Sequence record: NC_129898.1
Reading direction: 5' to 3' (one strand)
Source: a phage
Length of the DNA: 64,000 nucleotides
The translations under genes were made by a program, and so were the position numbers. The notes under the pieces are model-generated. The model worked only from the letters and a program-made list of their open reading frames with translations. It made no database searches and was not told the DNA's origin. Positions 2,841 through 15,619 of this stretch are shown here, piece after piece. Numbering within the stretch: the first letter of the stretch is position 1; the number at the start of each line of letters is the position of its first letter.

Positions 2841-3605
2841 TTGAAATTTATCTACAAAGAACACTACCACAAAGGTGTTGTGTGGAGTCTATTTGACGGG
2901 TCTGGTGGTGCAGTTATTGACTGGGCAAAAGCTGGATATCTGTGCCTGTGCTTTAACGCAGAAGGCGCTGACCATGGCAGTTATGCAGAGGTGATAACCG
3001 ATCATCCAAACATTCACTACGTGGATTATTGGATTGACCCGTGGTTTCCTCAAGAAACTTTTTGCATGTACCCAGCTCCAGACTTTATTCTTGCATTTCC
3101 TCCGTGCACGCATTTAGCAGTATCAGGTGCTGCACATTTTAAGAAAAAGCTGGCTAAGGATCCTCTGATTCAAATTAATGCTGTAAAAGATGCTCGGGTT
3201 GCAGAAGAGTTAGGAGAGATTTACGATTGCCCGTGGCATGTGGAGAATCCTGTGGGAGTTATGTCCACACTGTGGCGAAAACCTGATTACCGTTTTCATC
3301 CTTCAGATTATGGCGGGTATTTACCGGAGGATGATGTAAACCCGTGGTTTCCTGAATTTATAGCTCCACGTGATGCCTACCCAAAAATAACTTGCGGTTG
3401 GATAGGCAATGGATTTATAATCCCAGCCACAAAACCTGTTCCGCAAATAGTAGATGCGGTTAGTGGTTATTCTATGCAACACGCTAAGCTAGGTGGAAAG
3501 AGTGCAAGGACGAAGATGATTCGAAGCCTTACACCACGTGGCTGGGCTAAAGCTGTATTCTTAGCAAACGAGCCTGCAGTAAGGAGCAGAATTAATGGGC
3601 AGTAA
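2841..3605 (+). CDS. C5-cytosine methyltransferase-like protein (divergent, short)
   Basis: Motif I-like LFDGSGG, motif IV-like FPPCT (Cys kept, PCT not PCQ), motif VI-like HVENPV in canonical order. TTG start after AGGAGA chosen because ORF-track start 2811 lies in the terminator. Confidence 0.45.
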   Translation: MKFIYKEHYHKGVVWSLFDGSGGAVIDWAKAGYLCLCFNAEGADHGSYAEVITDHPNIHYVDYWIDPWFPQETFCMYPAPDFILAFPPCTHLAVSGAAHFKKKLAKDPLIQINAVKDARVAEELGEIYDCPWHVENPVGVMSTLWRKPDYRFHPSDYGGYLPEDDVNPWFPEFIAPRDAYPKITCGWIGNGFIIPATKPVPQIVDAVSGYSMQHAKLGGKSARTKMIRSLTPRGWAKAVFLANEPAVRSRINGQ

Positions 3606-5673
3606 ATTCATGGCATCTGCATACAACCGTTTCGGTGAGCCAAACCCGAAAGCAACCAAATATAAAAGTGGGGGGAGTGTGAAACGAGACTATCGTGATG
3701 AAAAAGAGGTCGAAACTGTAGAGACTGTTTTAGAAAATACTAAAATTGTCCCTGTCCCACAACAAAATATCGGACTAATGGCTGCACAATACTTTGGTGT
3801 GCGATCAGCATTGTCTCAAGAAGATGGGGTAACGGTCACTGCAACATATTTCCCATATTACGACCGCTACGGTAATCTATCTGGCTTTAAAAAGCGCGAC
3901 TGGACAATCCCTAAAGAGCAAAGAGGCCATTTCTCAGTTGTTGGCATAGTAAAGGCCAACTCTCAGATGTTTGGTCAAAAGCTGTGTGCATCCTCCAACA
4001 ACCGCAAGCAGATTAACGTTTGTGAGGGGGAAGGGGATGTTATTGCAGCATGGCAAGCTGCATATCAGATACAAGTGAAAGGTATTCTCACCAATGCTAA
4101 AGCCCCCGCGAAGGTGAAGCAGTGGGCTAAAGAAGTTCAGGATGGGATCGATGCAGTTATCAACGGCGGCGATCTGGCAGGAAAACCCTGCCTGCCTTTT
4201 GTTGGAATTAACTGCGGGTGTGCAAACGCCGTAGATACTTTTGCTAACAATGAGAAATTTATCCGTAGCTACGGAACAGTGGTCCTTGCAATGGACAACG
4301 ATGCAGCTAACGAGGTAGAGAAGCAAAAACACGTTATCAAAGGTGTTGAGGCCACACATAATATCGCAGCATTTTTGATGGCTGATAACGTTTACCACGT
4401 GGAATACCCAGGTGAGGTAAACGACCCTGATGGTGTAAAAGATATTCGTGACATGCTGAAGGCTAAAAAGCTGGAAGATATTGTCAACATGTTCCGTCAC
4501 CCAGTTAAATATGTGCCCGATGCTGTATCTGATTTAGAAGACTTCTCCATTGAGTCTCTTCGTAAGAAGACTTCCAATGGCGTGGATATCAGTGCGGAGT
4601 TCCCTAAATTGCAGAAGATGCTGAAAGGGCTCCACAAAGGCACCTTGATGATGCTGACAGGTCCATCTGGCGGTGGTAAAACAACTGTAGCCAAGAAGCT
4701 GGAACACTGCATCGCAAGATACTTGATGGATCCAACATGCCCTAAAGCTGATGATTATGAAGAGGATGATCGCCTGTGTCTGATTCACCTTGAAGAGGAT
4801 CCTGAGGAAGCAATCAACTCTCTGTACGCTAACCAGTTGGGGTTTGATGTTAAAGAGTTTGTTGAAGACCCTAGTCAGTTCCTGACCGACCAGGAGCACG
4901 CTGAGATTCATCAATCTTGGGCCAAGGCCGGAAAAATCAAAGTGTTCAAGCATTTCGGCTCCATCCCTGTGGATGAGCTGATCACTAAGCTTAAACAAAT
5001 GGTGTGCCTGTATCACTGCCGTTACATTGTGCTGGATCACTTGTCTATGGTGATTTCAGGGCTTAATGTTAAGGATGAGCGCAAAGAACTTGACATGGCT
5101 ATGACCCAACTAGCTGCGTTCTGTAAGCAGTTTAATGTGTTTATCCTGGTGATTGCTCACCTGAAACGTACAGAGATTGTACCTCCTAAGGATAAGGATG
5201 GGAATCCGTTGCCTTTCTGGTACCCTGTACGAAAAGAGAACCTTCGTGGTAGTGCCGGATTGGAGCAACTCAGCTGGGTAGTTGTTGGGGTAGAAGCAGA
5301 AGAGATGGTGGATCGTTCTCGTGGGCGTGTCCGTCTAGTAGGTCTTAAAAACCGTCCAGCAAAAACGTTAGGTATTGCGGACACTTTAGTTATGGATCCG
5401 CACACAGGCAAGTTCCACGATGCCAGCAATTGGTACTGGGATAAAGAAATGCAAATGTTTACAGACGGAGAAGGTGGGGAGGTTGTTTGGAGACCTCAGG
5501 CTATGTTTGAGGATCAGGATCATGCAGTTGTGGAAACACCTATGGGCAAGGTTGTGGCTGATAAGGTTGTAACTCCTACTGTTACCCCAGTTGACACACA
5601 GGAAGACCTTCAGTATGATGATCCGTCCTCTAACCACGTTCCTGGTTTTGAAGACGACGAAACACCTTTTTAA
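3595..5673 (+). CDS. DNA primase-helicase (TOPRIM plus T7 gp4-like helicase)
   Basis: TOPRIM-like CEGEGDV and MDNDAANE; Walker A LTGPSGGGKTT; IVLDHLSMV like T7 gp4 helicase motif. Confidence 0.85.
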   Translation: MGSKFMASAYNRFGEPNPKATKYKSGGSVKRDYRDEKEVETVETVLENTKIVPVPQQNIGLMAAQYFGVRSALSQEDGVTVTATYFPYYDRYGNLSGFKKRDWTIPKEQRGHFSVVGIVKANSQMFGQKLCASSNNRKQINVCEGEGDVIAAWQAAYQIQVKGILTNAKAPAKVKQWAKEVQDGIDAVINGGDLAGKPCLPFVGINCGCANAVDTFANNEKFIRSYGTVVLAMDNDAANEVEKQKHVIKGVEATHNIAAFLMADNVYHVEYPGEVNDPDGVKDIRDMLKAKKLEDIVNMFRHPVKYVPDAVSDLEDFSIESLRKKTSNGVDISAEFPKLQKMLKGLHKGTLMMLTGPSGGGKTTVAKKLEHCIARYLMDPTCPKADDYEEDDRLCLIHLEEDPEEAINSLYANQLGFDVKEFVEDPSQFLTDQEHAEIHQSWAKAGKIKVFKHFGSIPVDELITKLKQMVCLYHCRYIVLDHLSMVISGLNVKDERKELDMAMTQLAAFCKQFNVFILVIAHLKRTEIVPPKDKDGNPLPFWYPVRKENLRGSAGLEQLSWVVVGVEAEEMVDRSRGRVRLVGLKNRPAKTLGIADTLVMDPHTGKFHDASNWYWDKEMQMFTDGEGGEVVWRPQAMFEDQDHAVVETPMGKVVADKVVTPTVTPVDTQEDLQYDDPSSNHVPGFEDDETPF

Positions 5674-5731: not shown

Positions 5732-8155
5732 ATGAGTATGTGGTCTTTCGATCTGGAGGCCTCTGGCTTGCTGGAAGATCCAGATCTTTATTATCACTGC
5801 GGTTTGTTTAAAGAGCTGAATAAGAACCGTTTTATGCTGTTCCTTCCTCTAAATGACCGCACACACTACTCGGAAGAGGATGTAGAGAAGGCTAAGAACT
5901 TTATTCTGGCAAAGAGAACTCTTTATAAAGATTTTGAGGTTCGCATAGCAGATTTTTCAGAGTTGGAAGGTTGGCTTACAGGCAACTCAGACTGGTCACC
6001 TACGGCTTTGAACTGTCATAACTGCTACAGCTATGACTTTATGCTGATGGAAAGATTATCCGGTGTTCATTTTGATATGTTCCGTGATCCTAAATGTATG
6101 GGGACTATTAACGACCACCAGGTTAATCTGTTTGATACGTTGGCGATGAGTCGAATCTTGTGGCCTGACCGCCCTTTGCCAAAAGGTTGTCCGGACGCAG
6201 TATTCAATCCAGTTACCAAGAAAATGCAGCCTGTTGGGCCTCATGGCCTTATGGCATGGGGCTATGCCCTTGGTAACCAGAAAGTTCAAATCGATGACTG
6301 GCGTGAGCTTCCGCTGTGGAAGTATGTGGATCGTGTGTTCGAGGACGTTATCATCCAGGAGTTGCTCTGGAAAGAGTTGGTAGCGGAATCAAAAGGTGTA
6401 TTCTACGGCAAATCTGACATGCAGAACTTTATGTATGACCCTGCCAAAGAGAAGCCTAAAGGATTCAAGAAGATTACCTGGAAGAATGCATTACGCCGAG
6501 GCATGCTGCAGCATTTCCTGATGGAGCTGCAGGCTCGACAGGGTGTGTATTTCGACATAGATGGGGCTATTGCTTTACGTGACCGCTGCGATGCGTGGAT
6601 GAAAGAGATCGCTGATCGTGTTGAACCACAACTTCCTTTAAAAGAGTTATCAATGTCTCAGCGGCCTAAGTTCCCTGAAAAGCCGTTTAACCAGGATGGG
6701 ACAATCTCCAATAATGGTTGGAAATGGTTAAAAGACAAGCTTGGCTATCCTGTGGATATGAGCGCTTTAGAGTTCAAAGCTCCTCCTAAGCGAGCATTTA
6801 CCTCCACAGGGGATGTCAGTAAAATGGGGATAAAATGGTGTGAAGAGATGGGCTGTAAAGACCCAGATAAGATGGCTGATTTCTTGAGAGGGTATATCAA
6901 AGGAACTTCTACACCACACCCTTTACCTAAAGAGCTAATGGATCAGGCAATAAGTGACCTACAGCAGAAGCGAATGCCTGACTGCAAGATACCTATGAAA
7001 ATCAGCAATCAGGACGACATCAAGCGATACCTGATCAGTGCTGGTTGGCTCCCAACAATGTGGAGAACTAAGGATGTAACTAAAGACAGCAAGAAGAAAG
7101 CTCTGCCTGATGCTGATGTTGATGCACGAGTATATGCATATATGGACGAGCTTTTAGAGTCAGAGTATTGTGACCTAATTATCAACTTCTGGAACAAAAC
7201 TGATGCTAAGTTTCAGACAACCGTGCACAAGTTCCGAAGCTTCCCTAACTCAGAAAGGATTAAAAAGGAAGTGTTTGGGAAGATACGTAGAAAAGCCAGA
7301 GCGCTTATTACTTCTCCGCAACTGAAAGATACGTTTGGACACCTATGTCCGAATCTTGAAAAGTTGAACGGAGAGATGGCTAAAGATATCGTCTTGTGGT
7401 TATCCTTGCGAAACCGTAGATCGGTCCTTGATCCAATCAAGGAGGATAAGGTTGATACTGGTCTTCTTAATCATCCACGTTTGAAGATTGACCATAAGCT
7501 TCCTGCTAAAAGTTCTGGATTAACAAACACTTCCAGACAGAAACACAGCATTTGTGCAAACATGCCTAAACCATCTCCTAAAGTGGTTATGGGTAAAGAG
7601 ATGCGTAGTCTGTGGGGTGTTCCTCCAGGATACTTTGAGATCGGTATTGACGGGTCCAACTTAGAGCAGCTTATCGGGGCTTGGGGTGCCTTTGAGTTCG
7701 ACAACGGCCTGTACTATGATGTTGTAAGTAACGGGGACGCGCACCAAAACAATGCTGAGGCATATACAAAGGTAGCAGGTAGGGAGGTGTCTCGTAACGA
7801 TGGTAAACCTATCACGTATGGGGTTATGTATGGGGCACAAAAAGATAAAGTTGCAGATATGCTGGATATCTCTCCAGAGCTGGGGCAGAGAGTAATCGAT
7901 GCTCTCTGGGATGCCAACCCAGGCCTTAAGGGGCGTAAAGAGGATCTGGAGAAATTCTGGGAAGCAACAGGTAAGAAATTTATCTACTCTTTTGACGGTC
8001 ATGCCATTTGGACCCGCTCTAAACACTCTTTGCTTAATGCATATCAGCAAAATGGCGGTGCATCGTTGTGCGACTTGGTCGGAATCCTCATGCACCACCA
8101 AATGGTGAAGCGTGGATGGTATGATGAGGGTGTTCGTCGTATTATTTATTACCAT
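5732..8155 (+). CDS. DNA polymerase, family A (T7-like), exon 1
   Basis: FDLEASGL exo motif; GIDGSNLEQL (motif A) and RNDGKPITYGVMYG (motif B) align to T7 gp5; frame stops just before expected motif C. Confidence 0.85.
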
Positions 8156-8483
8156 AAATAACATTGTGGCTTCGTGCAGTGATGCACGTCGAAAACCTCT
8201 TTAATTGACGGGAAGGCTAAGTTGACTTTTACACCTAAACATGGTAAAAGCTCAATATGCTAATCCGCAGCGAAGCATCCGAGAGGATGAACGTTCAGAG
8301 ACTATCGAAAGCATAGCTCCAACACAGTTTGGGGTGAAGAAGCGAGTAGAGTAGGCCAGCAAGTGCGGTCGAAATGAGAGGTGCCTTGGTAACAAGGCAG
8401 TGAGATAGTCCGATCCATACGGGAAACTGTATGGCTATGCACGTAATGGTGCGGGGTAGCTTAACGACCTACCTGAACTATTG
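8156..8483 (+). ncRNA. group I self-splicing intron (ORF-less) in DNA polymerase gene
   Basis: 328 nt break between YYH and DEYQ; exon ends in U, intron ends in G; UUGUGG guide can pair CCAU|AA; P7-like CAGAGACUA (8296-8304) and UAGUCC (8406-8411). Confidence 0.65.
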
Positions 8484-11627: not shown

Positions 11628-12038
11628 ATGGTGTCTCCTTTATGTTGTTCAAATAAAATCGGAGATTCCACAATGGAACAAATGAACGATCAAGCGTCGG
11701 TTGCGATGAACGAGCAAGAACAACCTCAAGACTTTTTCTTAGGGTTAAGCAAAGATCAAGTGTCTCTTCTGTTGGTACTTTCTTCTTTCATGGGGAGACT
11801 TCAGGAGCTTACACAACAACCGGAGGCTGAACAGTTATTTCAGGCCCTGCGTGAAGAAGAAAAATATCGTCGTTTGGATTATGCCTTAGGTTGGGTAGCT
11901 CAACAACGAGATATGCTAATGGCCCTTTCTGGGACAACAAGTTTTGCAATGGGACTGTTGGCTCAAGTCCAGGACAAATTAATTCAGGCAGGGTTTGCAA
12001 ACACAGCGACCACTAACGAAGAACAAGGAGACAAATAA
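11628..12038 (+). CDS. hypothetical protein (136 aa)
   Basis: ORF ends TAATG overlapping next gene; no recognisable motif. Confidence 0.45.
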   Translation: MVSPLCCSNKIGDSTMEQMNDQASVAMNEQEQPQDFFLGLSKDQVSLLLVLSSFMGRLQELTQQPEAEQLFQALREEEKYRRLDYALGWVAQQRDMLMALSGTTSFAMGLLAQVQDKLIQAGFANTATTNEEQGDK

Positions 12039-13309
12039 TGAGCGTTATTCAACAATTCACCAACCCGATGAATCCGCGTGAAACTGTTTTACTGGCTCAC
12101 GGTATGATTAAACGTGTCAGCATCAAGCCTATCAAAGGTGCTGATCCTACAACAGGTATTAAAACCACTGTGTGGCAAGGTAAGAAAATCGAGTCCAGTC
12201 ACACCATCTCTTTACTGATTTCTGAACTGGATTCTTCTGATAACCTACTTCAAGGTGGTGAAGAAGTTTGGATCAGCATGGGTGATAAATTGCTCAAACC
12301 CGGTCATCAAGATTCCGTCTCTGTTAAAATTGATGACAAGTGGGAAACAGTAACGCCAGGATGGATCGTAAATATCCCTTTAAAGGCAAATGAGCATAAC
12401 GGTAAGACCTACTACAAAGGCTCATTGGCTAAAATGGTTAAGCTGGGGGCAGGAGATGCTCCAGCAGCCCCACAGCAACAAAAACAGCAACAAGGCACAC
12501 AATCACAAGGCCAGAAGCAGAAACCTCAGCAGAATGCCAATCAGGACGTTTTACGCATCTATGGTGATGTGACTCAGATTGTTGGTAACGTGGTTACTGT
12601 CAATGACCACAAGATTGGCGAAGGTGCTATGGTTGTCTCCGATGAGCAGCTTAAAGACCTGGTGGTTGGCGGTCGTGTTGCAGCTATTGTTGACAAAGAC
12701 ACCGGGAATATTATCAGCGGCTTCAAGGCCTACCCGCCTAAAGCAGAGAACGGTACACAAGGTTCTGGTGGTAAGCGTAAATCCTCTTACGACCCCATCG
12801 GTGTAGAGACAGGGCACAGTATCAATGCGTTGCAGATCATTCTGGATCGCGGGTTTAAGATTGACAGTCCTTTAGATGTGGCTAAAACACTGCACGTGGT
12901 CACCATCGAGCTTAAGAAAGAGTACGCTCAAGCCACCAACCGAACTGAAGATGAAGTAGGTGCCAGTGTTGGTAATGCGGTATTGAACGCTTGTCGCCGT
13001 ATTGACAAGAAGACGAAAGTTGATGATTTTGCAGTAGCAATTACTGCAGAGGCAAAAGATGTCTTGACTAATCTTGCTGAACCGTTGTATGATTGGATCA
13101 AGAACGGTGCTGGAGCCACTGACCATCAAGAGCCTCAAGCTGCCAAACAGGAAGCCTCCCCACAGCAAAACACTGTAGACGCCCCTCCTGTAGATGATGC
13201 GGAAGATGACCCAATGGATCAGAATCCAGCACAGTATGACTTCTGTGATGACATACCTTTCGCTCCGGTGGGTTTGCAATATGGCAAAAGTAGAATCCAC
13301 GCATTGTAA
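12038..13309 (+). CDS. putative single-stranded DNA-binding protein (SSB-like acidic DDIPF motif)
   Basis: Q-rich linker; acidic region ending DFCDDIPF (matches bacterial SSB tail DDDIPF) but frame continues 16 codons; position after polymerase as in T7-like modules. Confidence 0.4.
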
Positions 13310-13904
13310 GAGGTGCATCAAGTGCGGAGAGGTGAAAAACCTCTCCGAGTTCTACAAACACCCAAAGATGTCTGACGGTCATCTTAATAAGTGCAAAGAG
13401 TGTTGTAAGAAGGCCAGTAGGGAGGCTGACCAGTTTTCCCACGACTCTTCAGAAAAAGGTGTAATACGCGTGTTGTACAAGGCTCAAAAGTGCAACAGCA
13501 AGCAAAGAGGTCACCCTCCTCCGACTTACACCAAAAAAGAGTTTAAGGAGTGGCTATACCTGAACGGTTACAAAGAGTTGTATGACCAGTGGGTAGCCAG
13601 CGGATACGACAAAAGGAAAAAGCCCTCTTGTGACAGGATAGATGATTTCAAAGGGTACTCTTTTGATAATATCCGTTTAACGACCTGGGGAGAAAATAAA
13701 GACAAGCAGACGGAGGATATTCTGTTGCATAGAAGCACCAGCGGTAGACGGTGTAAAAATGTAAGGAGGTTGGACATGAATGGCAACGTTCTTAAAGAAT
13801 GGGTATCCCACAATTCTTGTAGAAGAGAAACCGGAATATGTGTTGATTACTACATTCATGAAAAAATTCCAGCTCCCGATGGATACCTCTATGAATACTT
13901 TTAG
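13281..13904 (+). CDS. HNH_3-like endonuclease-like protein with N-terminal zinc ribbon (possible free-standing homing endonuclease)
   Basis: [11 protein letters not shown]...KCKECC zinc ribbon; [23 protein letters not shown] resembles HNH_3 core with His positions replaced; start overlaps end of SSB-like gene. Confidence 0.45.
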
Positions 13905-13918
13905 CACCTAACTGACAT

Positions 13919-13948
13919 AGCCCTGCCCGAAAGGGTGGGGCATTTTTG
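13919..13948 (+). terminator. intrinsic terminator (repeat of 2796-2823)
   Basis: Same CCCTGCCC-GAAA-GGGTGGGG hairpin followed by T-run. Confidence 0.6.
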
Positions 13949-13966
13949 TATAAGGAGATCTGAAAA

Positions 13967-14383
13967 ATGACATTAGAAGATATCATTGTTAAACCTGAGA
14001 ACTATGACCAATACAATCTATCAACTCAATCTGTGGACCTTGGATGCGCTACGGTCAGTGCGTGGCTGGTTAACGGAAAAGAGCTGGATAAATGCTTAGA
14101 AGCTCACATGACTGTGAACAAGTTCCTTGATGAAAATACTCACTGGCTTGAGGGTGCAGGCGTATATGCTTCATGGTTGGAGAGTATGGGATTCGACTAC
14201 CAATCTGAAGAGGGGTGGTGGAGCTATTTAGCTATCTGTCCAGAGACGCTACAATGCTTCATGAAATATTCTGAAGATTTGGAGTACCGGGCGAGGGTTG
14301 ATAGTGCTATTGCCCGTTATAGCCGTAAACCTTTTTCCCACGACATTAAAACTGTGGAAGAATTTGTTGAAGTTTTCTGTTGA
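13967..14383 (+). CDS. hypothetical protein (138 aa)
   Basis: ORF after terminator; no recognisable motif. Confidence 0.5.
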   Translation: MTLEDIIVKPENYDQYNLSTQSVDLGCATVSAWLVNGKELDKCLEAHMTVNKFLDENTHWLEGAGVYASWLESMGFDYQSEEGWWSYLAICPETLQCFMKYSEDLEYRARVDSAIARYSRKPFSHDIKTVEEFVEVFC

Positions 14384-14745: not shown

Positions 14746-15171
14746 ATGACCTATGAAATGCCAAAACTGATTCGTGATGATGCCCAAAACGCTCACACCA
14801 TTATTATGGGCAAACGCATGGATATTATTTGTCATAAAGATTTCTGGGAAGGAAGTTACTTCACAGAGTATTTTGGTAAACTGGACAATGGTCTGCTGAT
14901 CCAGTTCTACACCGATGCGGAAAACAACATTCACTGGGAGTTCGAAACTGAAGATATCCATAAACTTTTCACCTTCCTCGGTATCAAGGTTGAGGCCAAG
15001 TTTGAAGAAGGTGAGTGCGACGATTGTGGATTCTACGAGGTAACAGATTTCTATCTTCCGAGTGGTGAGAACCTTTACTATGAAAGCCACTTCGGTAACT
15101 CTAATATGCCACAGAGCTGGACTGAGTTTTTTGAAATTGTGGAAGAGGAGCTGGCATATCGTGATTATTGA
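14746..15171 (+). CDS. hypothetical protein (141 aa)
   Basis: ORF; no recognisable motif. Confidence 0.5.
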   Translation: MTYEMPKLIRDDAQNAHTIIMGKRMDIICHKDFWEGSYFTEYFGKLDNGLLIQFYTDAENNIHWEFETEDIHKLFTFLGIKVEAKFEEGECDDCGFYEVTDFYLPSGENLYYESHFGNSNMPQSWTEFFEIVEEELAYRDY

Positions 15172-15619
15172 TACTGTAGAGGGAGATTTAATCTCCCTTT
15201 TTAAGAGCGGCACTGGTCACCTGATCCACGGTTGTAACTGCTTCCACACAATGGGTAAGGGTGTAGCAAAACAGATTGCCCGTGAGTTCCCTCAAGCATT
15301 GGAAGCTGATAAAACGACTACCTACGGTTGCCTAAGTAAGCTAGGTGCGTTCTCTCGGTGGGAGCACTTATCTCCGAAAGGTATTGTATACGGAATCAAT
15401 CTGTACACTCAGTTCTACCCAGGGCCTAATGCTGAATATTTCTCAATTCTGAAAGGCTTTGAGCGAGTCAATGAGATATTTAAGGGATCGACTTTACCAT
15501 TCTACATCCCTAAGATTGGGTGCGGCATAGGCGGCTTGAAGTGGGGACACGTGGAGGACGTTATTAACCTTGCCACTTTTGATATAGATATTATCGTGGT
15601 GGAGTACAAAGAGTGTTGA
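15159..15619 (+). CDS. macro-domain protein (ADP-ribose binding / possible ADP-ribosyl hydrolase)
   Basis: GDL...IHGCNCFHTMGKGVAKQI and IPKIGCGIGGL resemble macro-domain signatures; GTG start after GAGGAG inferred. Confidence 0.6.

What the first reader, a model, noticed from the sequence alone, without database searches (positions are those of the whole stretch)
12038..13904. SSB-like protein carries an internal DDIPF motif followed by a 16-codon extension that overlaps an HNH_3-like gene
Bacterial SSBs end exactly in ...DDDIPF, and the terminal Phe is needed for partner binding. Here FCDDIPF is followed by [15 protein letters not shown] before the stop, and the ATG of the HNH_3-like gene lies inside that extension. 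This looks like the footprint of an endonuclease gene inserted at the 3' end of the gene, or a small undetected intron. The HNH_3-like protein has Asp/Arg at the usual His positions (CDRIDD), so it may be catalytically altered.
Basis: inference. Interest (0 to 1): 0.6.

Follow-up and report, generated by a model that had tools for sequence, protein, structure and literature searches.

The report
Capped SSB tail plus homing endonuclease
An rV5-like coliphage's SSB-like replication protein carries the host-SSB docking motif (…DDIPF) buried under a conserved 15-residue "cap", next to a selfish endonuclease gene. The cap is not insertion debris: it is a widespread conserved peptide on many phage SSBs and helicases, and I found no description of it.

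Summary
ORF 12038-13309 (423 aa) is the Vequintavirus SSB-like protein, the orthologue of Bas52_0087. It ends FCDDIPF + [15 protein letters not shown], and a 207-aa endonuclease gene starts at ATG 13281 inside that tail.

Within the genus, tail plus endonuclease form one 640-bp indel sitting exactly between the Phe codon and the ancestral stop:
- 31 records carry tail + endonuclease.
- 18 carry an endonuclease variant after IPF-stop.
- 62 have neither.

The tail, however, is not read-through junk. The peptide AP[VI]GL[QP][YF]xxxxI[HY]x[ILF] follows …DD[IT]PF in distant homologues, canonical phage and prophage SSBs and primase-helicases. Most of these have no endonuclease (PVP-SE1, BIS47, alia). 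Its codons show third-position-only variation, which indicates selection on the peptide.

No intron signal was found. The endonuclease is a PacI-like/I-HmuI-like ββα-Me enzyme. Its Asp-Arg…Tyr motif is invariant across the family, so it is non-canonical rather than decayed. Its clade sits almost always just after genes that encode an SSB-type tip.

What the cap does is unknown. My best guess is that it masks or re-targets the tip.

The parts
12038..13309 (+). Gene for the SSB-like protein (423 aa; phrog_4477; orthologue of rv5_gp209 and Bas52_0087)
12038..12457 (+). N-terminal OB-like beta domain (residues 1-140)
12548..12733 (+). Second small beta-barrel (residues 171-232), preceded by a Q-rich disordered linker (residues 143-169)
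   Evidence: The preprint describes two OB folds.
12794..13102 (+). Four-helix bundle (residues 253-355). It holds D252 and Y351, the DRT10 escape positions reported for Bas52_0087.
   Evidence: D252 is nearly invariant. Escape mutants are described.
13241..13261 (+). SSB-Ct-like acidic tip FCDDIPF (residues 402-408); FDDDIPF in most relatives
   Evidence: P407 and F408 are invariant in 52 homologues.
13262..13309 (+). 15-residue 'cap' [15 protein letters not shown] plus the TAA stop. It is a member of a conserved peptide family that follows DD[IT]PF on SSBs, SSB-like proteins and primase-helicases.
   Evidence: Codon-position entropy and permutation test.
13262..13901 (+). 640-bp segment absent from endonuclease-less Vequintavirus genomes (cap + endonuclease gene). 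The boundaries are ambiguous by 3-4 nt because of TT[TC]/TTTTA microhomology.
   Evidence: Alignment A1. Junction counts 31/18/62.
13267..13283 (+). Putative Shine-Dalgarno GGTGGG and ATG start of the endonuclease, both lying inside the cap-coding region
   Evidence: Sequence. Start as annotated in rV5. A weak hairpin pairs the SD with AUCCAC (z=-1.86).
13281..13904 (+). Free-standing homing endonuclease gene (207 aa; phrog_1035)
   Evidence: Presence/absence polymorphism.
13314..13403 (+). N-terminal CxxC...CxxC zinc ribbon (C12, C15, C38, C41 invariant), shared with endonucleases that carry a different (classic HNH) nuclease domain
   Evidence: It also aligns to the PacI N-terminus.
13623..13727 (+). 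beta-beta-alpha-Me nuclease core with [25 protein letters not shown] (D118, R119, D122, Y126, N130, N139)
13758..13901 (+). C-terminal NUMOD-like DNA-binding domain of the I-HmuI type
   Evidence: 17 of 53 homologues hit PF22083 and 15 hit NUMOD1. It aligns to I-HmuI residues about 100-171.
13902..13920 (+). Patch of 5 substitutions just after the insertion (TAGCACCTAACTGAC versus TAACATCTAGTTAAC in endonuclease-less and slur16-type genomes)
   Evidence: Alignment A1.
13920..13951 (+). Intrinsic terminator shared by all allele types. It ends the SSB-like/endonuclease transcript.
   Evidence: Conserved in A1.

Best explanation
The window comes from an rV5-like Vequintavirus. ORF 12038-13309 is its SSB-like replication/recombination protein: two OB-type domains, a helical bundle and a disordered acidic tail that copies the host SSB tip DDDIPF.

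In this phage the tip is not C-terminal. It is followed by a 15-residue cap that belongs to an old, conserved peptide family, A-P-[IV]-[GT]-L-[QP]-[YF]-x-x-x-x-I-[HY]-x-[ILF]. This family sits after DD[IT]PF on three unrelated kinds of phage proteins: canonical SSBs, this SSB-like family, and DnaB-type primase-helicases. The cap is translated and is under purifying selection as a peptide.

Immediately downstream, starting from an SD and ATG inside the cap-coding DNA, lies a promoter-less free-standing homing endonuclease gene. It encodes a zinc ribbon, a PacI-like beta-beta-alpha-Me core and an I-HmuI-like NUMOD domain. It is co-transcribed with the SSB-like gene up to the shared terminator. 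This endonuclease clade specialises in the 3' ends of genes that encode SSB-type tips.

Inferred steps:
- In the Vequintavirus lineage the ancestral allele ended ...DDDIPF-stop.
- Cap and endonuclease were then copied in together from a capped donor allele, by homing or recombination anchored in the conserved tip-coding sequence. That is why they form a single 640-bp indel.
- The endonuclease is probably active, using Tyr126 where canonical HNH enzymes use His.
- The cap removes the free alpha-carboxylate of the terminal Phe that canonical SSB partners such as ExoI need. It therefore most likely masks or re-targets the tip, giving a changed partner set, a phage-specific docking site, or controlled exposure by proteolysis. 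It does not simply destroy the tip, because DDDIPF stays conserved in capped proteins.
For: Identity of the phage and protein:
- 93-97% DNA identity to rV5-like phages.
- phrog_4477 E=2e-172.
- OB-fold hits.
- Bas52_0087 is described as SSB-like with an FDDDIPF C-tip and as the trigger of the DRT10 defence. Bas52 (RudolfGeigy) is an endonuclease-less relative (H81).

Indel anatomy: alignment A1. Counts are 31 cap+endonuclease, 18 IPF-stop+endonuclease variant and 62 neither.

The cap is a conserved module:
- Distant homologues at 30-45% identity carry it.
- Primase-helicases of GAP31, SalP219 and Mydovirus carry it.
- Canonical SSBs of about 160 aa carry it.
- In an unbiased scan of FDDDIPF-coding viral DNA, 36 of 120 sites are extended, and 21 of those extensions start with AP.
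- 228 of 5,426 complete E. coli genomes have a prophage ssb with the variant APVTLPFPRHAIHAI.

Selection on the peptide: codon-position entropy is 0.49/0.42/1.63 for cap codons 1-7, against 0.25/0.25/1.33 for the tip. The pattern is the same in the 20 sequences without an endonuclease. Permutation p<5e-5.

Cap and endonuclease are separable:
- Cap without endonuclease: PVP-SE1, BIS47, alia.
- Endonuclease without cap: slur16 type, L247, L271, L272, L275, L278, L279.
- The alia/nieznany indel boundary lies at the cap's stop codon.

Site preference of the endonuclease clade: the upstream gene ends in an IPF-type tip in 8 of 9 independently sampled homologues.

Endonuclease fold and motif. PacI uses Tyr in place of His (PMC5714182).

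Precedent: T4 SegG is a promoter-less free-standing endonuclease next to, and targeting, SSB gene 32 (PMC2988022).
Against: - No experiment here shows that the capped protein is made, stable or functional, or that the endonuclease cuts anything.
- Within Vequintavirus the cap is never seen without the endonuclease (31/31). There it could be hitch-hiking only, and 72% of genomes do well with a free Phe end.
- The direction of the event (gain versus precise loss) is inferred from allele frequencies and outgroups, not from a rooted tree.
- The entropy test does not correct for shared ancestry.
- The cap region is disordered in the model (pLDDT<50), so no structural clue to its partner exists.
- The last 8 cap codons show weaker periodicity (1.24/0.91/1.57) and overlap the endonuclease start in some genomes.
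- The functional reading (masking or re-targeting) rests on textbook knowledge of SSB-Ct recognition, not on data for this protein.
Confidence: 0.6

Rival explanations
1. One reading: the 15 residues are meaningless read-through created when an endonuclease gene landed in front of the stop codon. On this view the cap is a scar with no function of its own, and the tip is simply inactivated.
For: There is perfect linkage of extension and endonuclease in Vequintavirus (31/31). The indel begins exactly after the Phe codon. The endonuclease's SD and ATG lie in the extension, so part of its sequence is needed by the endonuclease gene.
Against: - The same peptide occurs on distant homologues, canonical SSBs and helicases, mostly without an endonuclease.
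- Variation is at third codon positions in the upstream frame, including in the subset without an endonuclease.
- The tip DDDIPF stays conserved in capped proteins.
- In Stephanstirmvirinae the cap lies outside the endonuclease indel.
Confidence: 0.08
2. The cap is part of the selfish element's kit: an adaptor evolved by this endonuclease clade so that insertion in front of the stop codon is harmless to the host gene. It might be trimmed off or be inert. Caps without an endonuclease would then be relics left after endonuclease loss, kept because altered caps would be harmful and because Ala-Pro codons cannot mutate to stop in one step.
For: The zinc-ribbon endonuclease clade is tied to tip-coding gene ends (8/9). 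Whenever both are present, the endonuclease starts inside the cap. Capped and uncapped alleles coexist in one genus. In alia the first 9 codons of the endonuclease frame survive inside the cap.
Against: - 31 of 42 distinct APxGL-cap loci have no endonuclease.
- None of the 16 Pseudomonas-type (APxHxLxGx) cap loci with enough downstream sequence, and only 1 of the 42 'other'-class extension loci, has one.
- Half of the endonuclease-adjacent tip genes have no cap and use a 24-92 nt spacer instead, so the endonuclease does not need it.
- BIS47 has caps on both its helicase and its SSB-like protein with no zinc-ribbon endonuclease at either site.
Confidence: 0.17
3. The cap is a cleavable pro-peptide or degron. 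A host or phage protease removes it, exposing DDIPF-COOH at the right time, or it targets the protein for turnover through a hydrophobic C-terminus resembling ssrA- or MuA-type ClpX tags.
For: The tip is conserved under the cap, which suggests it is still used. Caps end in hydrophobic residues (...IYAL...IHAI...LYALA...HCI) and begin with small-Pro right after Phe.
Against: There is no direct evidence and no recognisable protease motif was tested. The resemblance to ClpX tags is from memory only. Cap classes differ strongly between host clades.
Confidence: 0.12
4. A small group I or group II intron (or another splicing or recoding event) removes the insertion so that the mature protein ends at ...DDIPF.
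For: The insertion sits precisely between the last sense codon and the stop, where precise excision would restore the native end.
Against: - There is no Rfam intron hit even at E<=10 in 12900-14200.
- The endonuclease ORF occupies 624 of 640 inserted bases, leaving 19 nt 5' and 0 nt 3' for a ribozyme.
- No placement of the boundaries gives exon-U and intron-terminal-G.
- The cap is conserved as a translated peptide and exists without any insertion downstream.
Confidence: 0.02

Closest known systems
Bas52_0087 of phage RudolfGeigy (Vequintavirus): SSB-like trigger of the DRT10/UG17 defence (bioRxiv 10.64898/2026.04.29.721553)
   Same: It is the orthologue in a closely related Vequintavirus (the region is 92.5% identical in DNA to RudolfGeigy, H81). 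The predicted architecture is the same (OB folds, helical region, disordered acidic tail), as is the tip motif. D252 is conserved.
   Different: Bas52_0087 ends at FDDDIPF with a free Phe, and no endonuclease gene follows. The window's protein has FCDDIPF plus a 15-residue cap and an overlapping endonuclease gene. The preprint passages retrieved here do not mention capped alleles.
E. coli SSB C-terminal tip (SSB-Ct, ...PPMDFDDDIPF), the hub for ExoI, RecQ, PriA, chi, DnaG, RecO, RecG and phage SSAPs
   Same: Relatives of the window protein end with the identical 11 residues PPMDFDDDIPF. They share the disordered linker and acidic tip design.
   Different: The OB domain is not PF00436. In the window the Phe is internal, whereas partner binding as described for SSB-Ct uses the terminal Phe and its carboxylate (own knowledge; the importance of the tail is cited).
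T7 gp2.5 (SSB) and gp4 (primase-helicase) acidic C-terminal tails ending in Phe
   Same: Two replisome proteins of one phage share the same acidic Phe-ended tail. Here the SSB-like protein has ...DDIPF and the DnaB-type helicase 3595-5673 has ...EDDETPF, next to a family A polymerase-like gene.
   Different: There is no sequence relationship to T7 proteins. No 15-residue cap is known for T7 tails (own knowledge).
T4 SegG, and T4 seg/mob free-standing homing endonucleases generally (PMC2988022)
   Same: It is a promoter-less endonuclease cassette placed beside an SSB gene and inherited with flanking markers. Related phages are polymorphic for its presence or absence.
   Different: SegG is GIY-YIG and lies between genes 32 and 59. 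Here the enzyme is beta-beta-alpha-Me, sits at the 3' end, overlaps the coding region and comes with a coding extension. Cleavage site and activity are untested.
PacI restriction endonuclease (PDB 3LDY/3M7K; His-Me finger group 20)
   Same: It has an N-terminal CxxC...CxxC ribbon and the core motif VDRxDxxxGY...N...N. Arg sits where other HNH enzymes have His, and a Tyr is in the Omega-loop.
I-HmuI (PDB 1U3E), an HNH/NUMOD intron-encoded nicking homing endonuclease
   Same: Nuclease core plus C-terminal NUMOD-like DNA-binding domain are collinear (profile E=1.3e-4). PF22083 hits occur in 17 of 53 homologues.
   Different: I-HmuI's general base His75 aligns with Arg119 here. I-HmuI is intron-encoded and lacks the N-terminal zinc ribbon.

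Membership tests
phrog_4477 / rv5_gp209 / Bas52_0087 SSB-like family | Full-length sequence similarity to family members | tested here: met
   phrog_4477 E=2e-172 over residues 1-408. 79 homologues, the closest 97% identical.
phrog_4477 / rv5_gp209 / Bas52_0087 SSB-like family | Protein ends at the tip ...D-x-[IV]-P-F | tested here: not met
   The profile ends at F408, but the window protein continues for 15 residues. About 40% of the listed homologue clusters do the same.
Bacterial-type SSB (Pfam PF00436) | Match to the SSB OB-domain model | tested here: not met
   No Pfam hit at E<=0.1. No PDB sequence hit.
Bacterial-type SSB (Pfam PF00436) | OB fold resembling SSB/PriB/RPA | tested here: met
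Bacterial-type SSB (Pfam PF00436) | Disordered linker followed by an acidic tip whose Phe is the C-terminal residue | tested here: not met
   Linker and tip are present, but Phe408 is internal in this allele.
Bacterial-type SSB (Pfam PF00436) | Binds single-stranded DNA | not testable with these tools
   This needs EMSA or fluorescence titration.
Free-standing homing endonuclease | Nuclease-family ORF present or absent at the same locus among close relatives | tested here: met
   49 records with it and 62 without, at 93-97% flanking identity.
Free-standing homing endonuclease | Not inside an intron or intein | tested here: met
   No Rfam intron. The ORF is in a different frame from the host gene and has its own start.
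Free-standing homing endonuclease | Cuts the endonuclease-less allele and is over-inherited in mixed infection | not testable with these tools
   This needs in-vitro cleavage and phage crosses.
Free-standing homing endonuclease | Flanking-marker co-conversion or target-site differences next to the insertion | tested here: inconclusive
   There are 5 substitutions in 15 nt just downstream and D-to-C upstream. However, FCDDIPF-stop alleles exist, and the slur16 type keeps the endonuclease-less downstream sequence.
   No hit for the protein or any of 52 homologues at E<=1.
   Arg119 aligns with I-HmuI His75. R119 is invariant in the family.
PacI-like His-Me finger (group 20 of PMC5714182) | DRxD...GY...N...N motif, with Tyr substituting for His | tested here: met
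   [12 protein letters not shown]126...N130...N139 against PacI VDRSDSFEGY100.
PacI-like His-Me finger (group 20 of PMC5714182) | Significant overall similarity to PacI | tested here: inconclusive
Group I/II intron | Ribozyme core detectable and splice-site nucleotides present | tested here: not met
   plus boundary inspection.

The most novel reading that the evidence does not exclude
Short conserved 'caps' after the DDDIPF tip are a widespread, overlooked regulatory layer of phage SSBs and replisome proteins. About 30% of viral FDDDIPF-encoding genes carry one, about 4% of complete E. coli genomes carry one variant, and different cap classes occur in enterics, Pseudomonas and rhizobia.

By burying the terminal Phe carboxylate, a cap would stop the phage protein from engaging host SSB partners such as ExoI, or redirect it to a cognate phage partner (for example Rad52-type annealases or the phage polymerase). 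That could change sensitivity to tip-dependent defences such as DRT10.

A dedicated homing-endonuclease clade that targets tip-coding gene ends would then spread capped alleles between phages.
Probability: 0.25. Interest if true: 0.85.

Novelty: new variant of a known kind. Interest (0 to 1): 0.6.

Why it matters
In current models the SSB C-terminal tip works only as a free ...IPF-COOH end. It is the docking site for more than a dozen host genome-maintenance proteins and for phage recombinases, and it is now implicated in triggering an anti-phage reverse-transcriptase system (DRT10) through this very protein family.

A conserved peptide that sits on top of that tip implies one of three things: an unrecognised mode of tip recognition, a switchable (masked/unmasked) tip, or a partner-specificity code. 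The cap is found in many phages and in hundreds of E. coli prophages.

Natural near-isogenic phages with and without the cap already exist in the BASEL collection:
- Capped: EmilHeitz, DrSchubert, MaxBurger.
- Uncapped: RudolfGeigy, AlexBoehm.
- Endonuclease without cap: HeinrichReichert, WalterGehring.

The question is therefore directly testable.

Separately, an endonuclease clade that homes to the few codons encoding the tip would be a neat example of a selfish element exploiting one of the most conserved short coding motifs in bacteria and phages. It would also explain how tails of unrelated replisome proteins come to share the same appendage.

Tried and rejected
- **Pfam on both proteins:** no useful hit. 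A PDB sequence search with the SSB-like protein returned only noise.
- **Intron search:** Rfam at E<=10 over 12900-14200 returned only chance-level hits and no intron.
- **Bacterial genome scan:** the scan for DDIPF-AP coding DNA was too loose, and about half of the 120 hits were chance matches. They were filtered in Python to real SSB tails.
- **First unbiased pattern:** Repeated with FDDDIPF.
- **Frameshift idea:** I looked for a programmed frameshift that would fuse the zinc ribbon to the SSB-like protein or give an early stop. There is no slippery site and no nearby stop in the other frames (inspection).
- **IP(F)APxG resemblance:** the endonuclease C-terminus (…[12 protein letters not shown]) resembles the tip and cap (…[10 protein letters not shown]), which could mark a duplicated target. 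The endonuclease C-terminus is conserved family-wide at other loci, so I treat this as coincidence.
- **Cys variant as marker:** the FCDDIPF variant does not mark the insertion, because FCDDIPF-stop alleles exist.
- **RNA hairpin over the endonuclease SD:** only z=-1.86, so it is not claimed.
- **Literature searches:** searches for DDDIPF-extension strings and for capped SSB tips found nothing describing the cap. Absence from this library is not proof of novelty.
- **Association with Rad52-type annealases:** the neighbour-gene association is significant (7/8 against 13/117, p=2.6e-7) but not corrected for shared ancestry. It is a lead only.
Full report
**What is in the window**

The region is 93-97% identical to rV5-like coliphages (genus Vequintavirus); the best match is VB-EcoM-WM. 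ORF 12038-13309 encodes a 423-aa protein that ends ...[26 protein letters not shown].
- The Phe codon is 13259-13261.
- The 15-residue extension is 13262-13306.
- The stop is 13307-13309.

A second ORF, whose start matches the annotated start of rv5_gp208 at ATG 13281, runs to TAG 13902-13904 (207 aa). It overlaps the first ORF by 29 nt.

**Is the first protein SSB-like?**

Pfam finds nothing, and PHROGs places it in phrog_4477, a family of unknown function. That profile ends exactly at F408.

An AlphaFold model built on 52 homologues gives this layout:
- an all-beta domain (residues 1-140);
- a disordered Q-rich linker;
- a second small barrel (171-232);
- a four-helix bundle (253-355);
- a disordered tail (360-423).

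A 2026 preprint reports that the orthologue Bas52_0087 of phage RudolfGeigy is SSB-like with an FDDDIPF C-tip. It is also the phage trigger of the DRT10 reverse-transcriptase defence, with a link to ExoI/SbcB. So 'SSB-like' stands, although the protein is not a PF00436 SSB.

**The insertion within the genus**

Endonuclease-less relatives (FV3, Murica) end ...FDDDIPF-TAA. The window and rV5 carry 640 extra bases exactly between that Phe codon and the stop position, and the endonuclease's own TAG falls where the ancestral TAA was. The boundary is ambiguous by 3-4 nt because of TT[TC]/TTTTA microhomology.

A third allele (slur16 type) has ...DDSIPF-TGA, an 8-nt spacer and an endonuclease with a different 5' end, so its Phe end is free.

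Junction-specific searches of the phage collection give these counts:

| Allele type | Records |
|---|---|
| Cap + endonuclease | 31 |
| slur16 type (IPF-stop + endonuclease variant) | 18 |
| Neither | 62 |

Every cap-bearing Vequintavirus record also has the endonuclease. FCDDIPF-stop alleles exist, so the Cys is not tied to the insertion.

**The twist: the extension is a conserved module**

Many distant homologues at 30-45% identity also end ...DFDDDIPF-AP[VI]GLQY....[IL][HY].[ILF].

The same peptide follows ...DD[DN]TPF at the end of the primase-helicase of Seunavirus phages GAP31 and SalP219. The window's own helicase (3595-5673) ends ...EDDETPF-stop, without a cap.

A DNA-pattern scan of viral contigs found the peptide on helicases, on the SSB-like family and on ordinary Q-rich SSBs of about 160 aa.

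A scan of bacterial genomes found many prophage SSBs with DDDIPF followed by AP... tails. Only one of the 32 examined in detail (Sodalis) has this type of endonuclease downstream.

In an unbiased sample of 120 viral sites encoding FDDDIPF, 84 stop at Phe and 36 (30%) continue for 1-24 residues; one further read-through, probably a chance match, runs over 100 residues. Recognisable classes include:
- APVTLPFPRHAIHAI in enterobacterial phages;
- APLHHLAGA in Pseudomonas phages;
- A[AP]EWR(G) in rhizobial phages.

One variant alone is present in 228 of 5,426 complete E. coli genomes. There it is annotated simply as ssb and lies in a Rad52-like / ssb / anti-RecBCD module.

**Cap and endonuclease are separable**
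- PVP-SE1 gp038 and BIS47_17 carry the cap and are followed by a terminator and a convergent tail gene. Phage alia carries the cap followed by a terminator and a methyltransferase. None has an endonuclease.
- Phages nieznany and PsgM04F have the same cap with an overlapping HNH endonuclease. In the alia/nieznany comparison, identity runs through tip and cap to the stop codon and breaks right after it.
- Conversely, endonucleases of this clade follow uncapped tips in slur16-type phages, ECOO78, Vibrio phage 1.085.O and several metagenomic phages.
- Over distinct loci with the APxGL-type cap, 11 have the endonuclease and 31 do not.

**The cap is selected as a peptide**

Across 30 distinct DNA versions, per-site entropy by codon position in the upstream frame is as follows:

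| Region | Position 1 | Position 2 | Position 3 |
|---|---|---|---|
| Cap codons 1-7 | 0.49 | 0.42 | 1.63 |
| Cap codons 8-15 | 1.24 | 0.91 | 1.57 |
| The 8 tip codons | 0.25 | 0.25 | 1.33 |

The pattern holds in the 20 sequences without an endonuclease (0.53/0.48/1.58). Shuffling positions never reaches the observed third-position excess in 20,000 trials.

This analysis is not corrected for phylogeny. Even so, the signal is the signature of a translated, constrained peptide, not of a regulatory DNA site or neutral read-through. The tip itself remains conserved under the cap.

**The endonuclease**

No HNH Pfam model matches it or its homologues. 17 of 53 homologues hit the I-HmuI NUMOD-like domain.

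The family alignment shows four invariant Cys (a zinc ribbon) and the invariant or near-invariant core P115, S116, D118, R119, D122, Y126, N130, N139.

A family profile matches I-HmuI (E=1.3e-4), with Arg119 opposite the general base His75. It matches PacI more weakly (E=0.01), and PacI's VDRSDSFEGY motif and N-terminal ribbon are the same. PacI is an active enzyme in which a tyrosine takes the role of the missing histidine (PMC5714182).

So the 'odd' residues define a PacI-like subtype and are not decay. Activity is inferred, not shown.

**Where this endonuclease clade lives**

Homologues were sampled by their own similarity, without regard to neighbours. They sit immediately after a gene whose product ends in an IPF-type tip in 8 of 9 cases:
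- SSBs ending ...QEIPF, ...SDIPF, ...DDDIPFN or ...DEIPHSS;
- small SSB-like proteins ending ...TEIPF or ...DDIPF;
- helicases ending ...DDDIPF or ...DEDIPF plus tails.

Endonucleases with a classic HNH core but the same N-terminal zinc ribbon occupy the same position. I infer that the ribbon-bearing clade targets the conserved tip-coding DNA. This is comparable in spirit to T4 SegG beside gene 32.

The gene has no convincing promoter of its own and shares the terminator at 13920-13941.

**Intron alternative**

There is no Rfam intron match even at E<=10. The ORF fills nearly the whole insertion. No boundary placement gives group I splice-site nucleotides. The cap is conserved as protein. I reject the intron idea.

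**How it most likely works**

Shown:
- the anatomy;
- the polymorphism;
- conservation of the cap;
- separability of cap and endonuclease;
- the endonuclease's fold and motifs;
- its site preference.

Inferred:
- The short ...IPF-stop allele is ancestral in Vequintavirus. Cap plus endonuclease were copied in together from a capped donor by homing or recombination.
- The endonuclease is translated from the SD and ATG inside the cap region. A weak hairpin over the SD (z=-1.86) is not claimed.
- The cap changes what the tip can bind.

Canonical SSB-Ct recognition uses the terminal Phe and its carboxylate (established knowledge). A cap should therefore block ExoI-type partners, unless it is removed or it forms a new bipartite docking site.

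Two observations favour a real function over a mere scar:
- BIS47 caps both its helicase and its SSB-like protein without any zinc-ribbon endonuclease.
- APxGL caps on temperate-phage SSBs co-occur with Rad52-type annealases (7 of 8 against 13 of 117 in the background, p=2.6e-7, uncorrected).

Against a strong functional reading, 72% of Vequintavirus genomes keep a free Phe end, and within that genus the cap never occurs without the endonuclease.

**Novelty and verdict**

The SSB-like protein and free-standing endonucleases are both known kinds. I could not find any of the following described:
- a conserved peptide cap on SSB-type tips;
- its breadth across phages and prophages;
- an endonuclease clade dedicated to tip-coding gene ends.

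I rate the finding as a new variant of a known kind, with moderate-to-high interest.

Noticed in passing
window 3595-5673 (tip at 5650-5673) and 5732-8161: The DnaB-type primase-helicase ends ...GFEDDETPF-stop, the same acidic Phe tip as the SSB-like protein, and is followed by a family A polymerase-like gene. This recalls the T7 gp2.5/gp4 tail logic. In Seunavirus and Mydovirus the helicase homologue carries the same 15-residue cap, with or without an endonuclease.
   Followed up: partly
L022 (BIS47 helicase, motif at 7390) and L265 1501-2721 (BIS47_17): Klebsiella phage BIS47 has caps on both its helicase (APIGLQYAKHAIYVI) and its SSB-like protein (APIGLPYGRNFIHCI), with no zinc-ribbon endonuclease at either site.
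   Followed up: partly
L280 2666-3181 (E. coli PK5074 prophage ssb): 228 of 5,426 complete E. coli genomes carry a prophage ssb ending [21 protein letters not shown], annotated as plain 'ssb'. It lies between a Rad52/Rad22-family annealase and a P22-type anti-RecBCD gene. In the viral sample, Rad52-type neighbours are strongly enriched next to this cap class (p=2.6e-7, not corrected for ancestry).
   Followed up: partly
L015 4692-4745 and L017 603-656: Capped SSBs (…GKSRIHALS) are followed by an overlapping Abc2-like anti-RecBCD ORF. That ORF starts at the same ATG, and with nearly the same first eight codons (MEKAESTHY), as the window's endonuclease (MAKVESTHC).
   Followed up: no
L274 upstream ORF end (about 1380-1476): A ResIII/DEAD helicase ends ...SDEDIPF followed by a 22-residue strongly hydrophobic tail (SLSIAIPLASLSLYLEWYNLII). 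An endonuclease of the window's family lies 24 nt downstream.
   Followed up: no
(e.g. L025, L028, L147, L148, L185): Other cap classes exist after DDDIPF: APLHHLAGA-type (9 aa) in Pseudomonas prophages and phages, A[AP]EWR(G) in rhizobia, a ...W[RS]AM class and a ...PYRGxxxLI class. None of them had an endonuclease downstream in the sample.
   Followed up: partly
phage records MG065635-MG065690: About 20 records named 'Campylobacter phage' with host C. jejuni are roughly 94% identical to E. coli rV5-like phages across this region. This suggests mislabelled or contaminant genomes.
   Followed up: no
L007 2545-3042 (GAP31_256), L272 1494-1919 (ECOO78_27), P0045: Likely misannotations. Two zinc-ribbon HNH endonucleases are labelled 'baseplate wedge protein gp25' or 'gp25', and the SalP219 SSB-like protein is named 'Tail fiber protein' in UniRef.
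   Followed up: no
L005 (KP869102, O157 typing phage 4) 990-3562: The record shows a truncated copy of the SSB-like gene plus a duplicated downstream gene near its end. This is probably a terminal-repeat or assembly artefact.
   Followed up: no
window 15062-15619: A Macro-domain (Tk.4-like phosphatase) gene lies a few genes downstream and is conserved in all relatives examined.
   Followed up: no
window 13235-13345: The predicted RNA hairpin pairs the endonuclease's Shine-Dalgarno GGUGGG with AUCCAC, with the ATG in the loop. That would fit translational coupling or repression, but it is only marginally better than shuffles (z=-1.86).
   Followed up: partly
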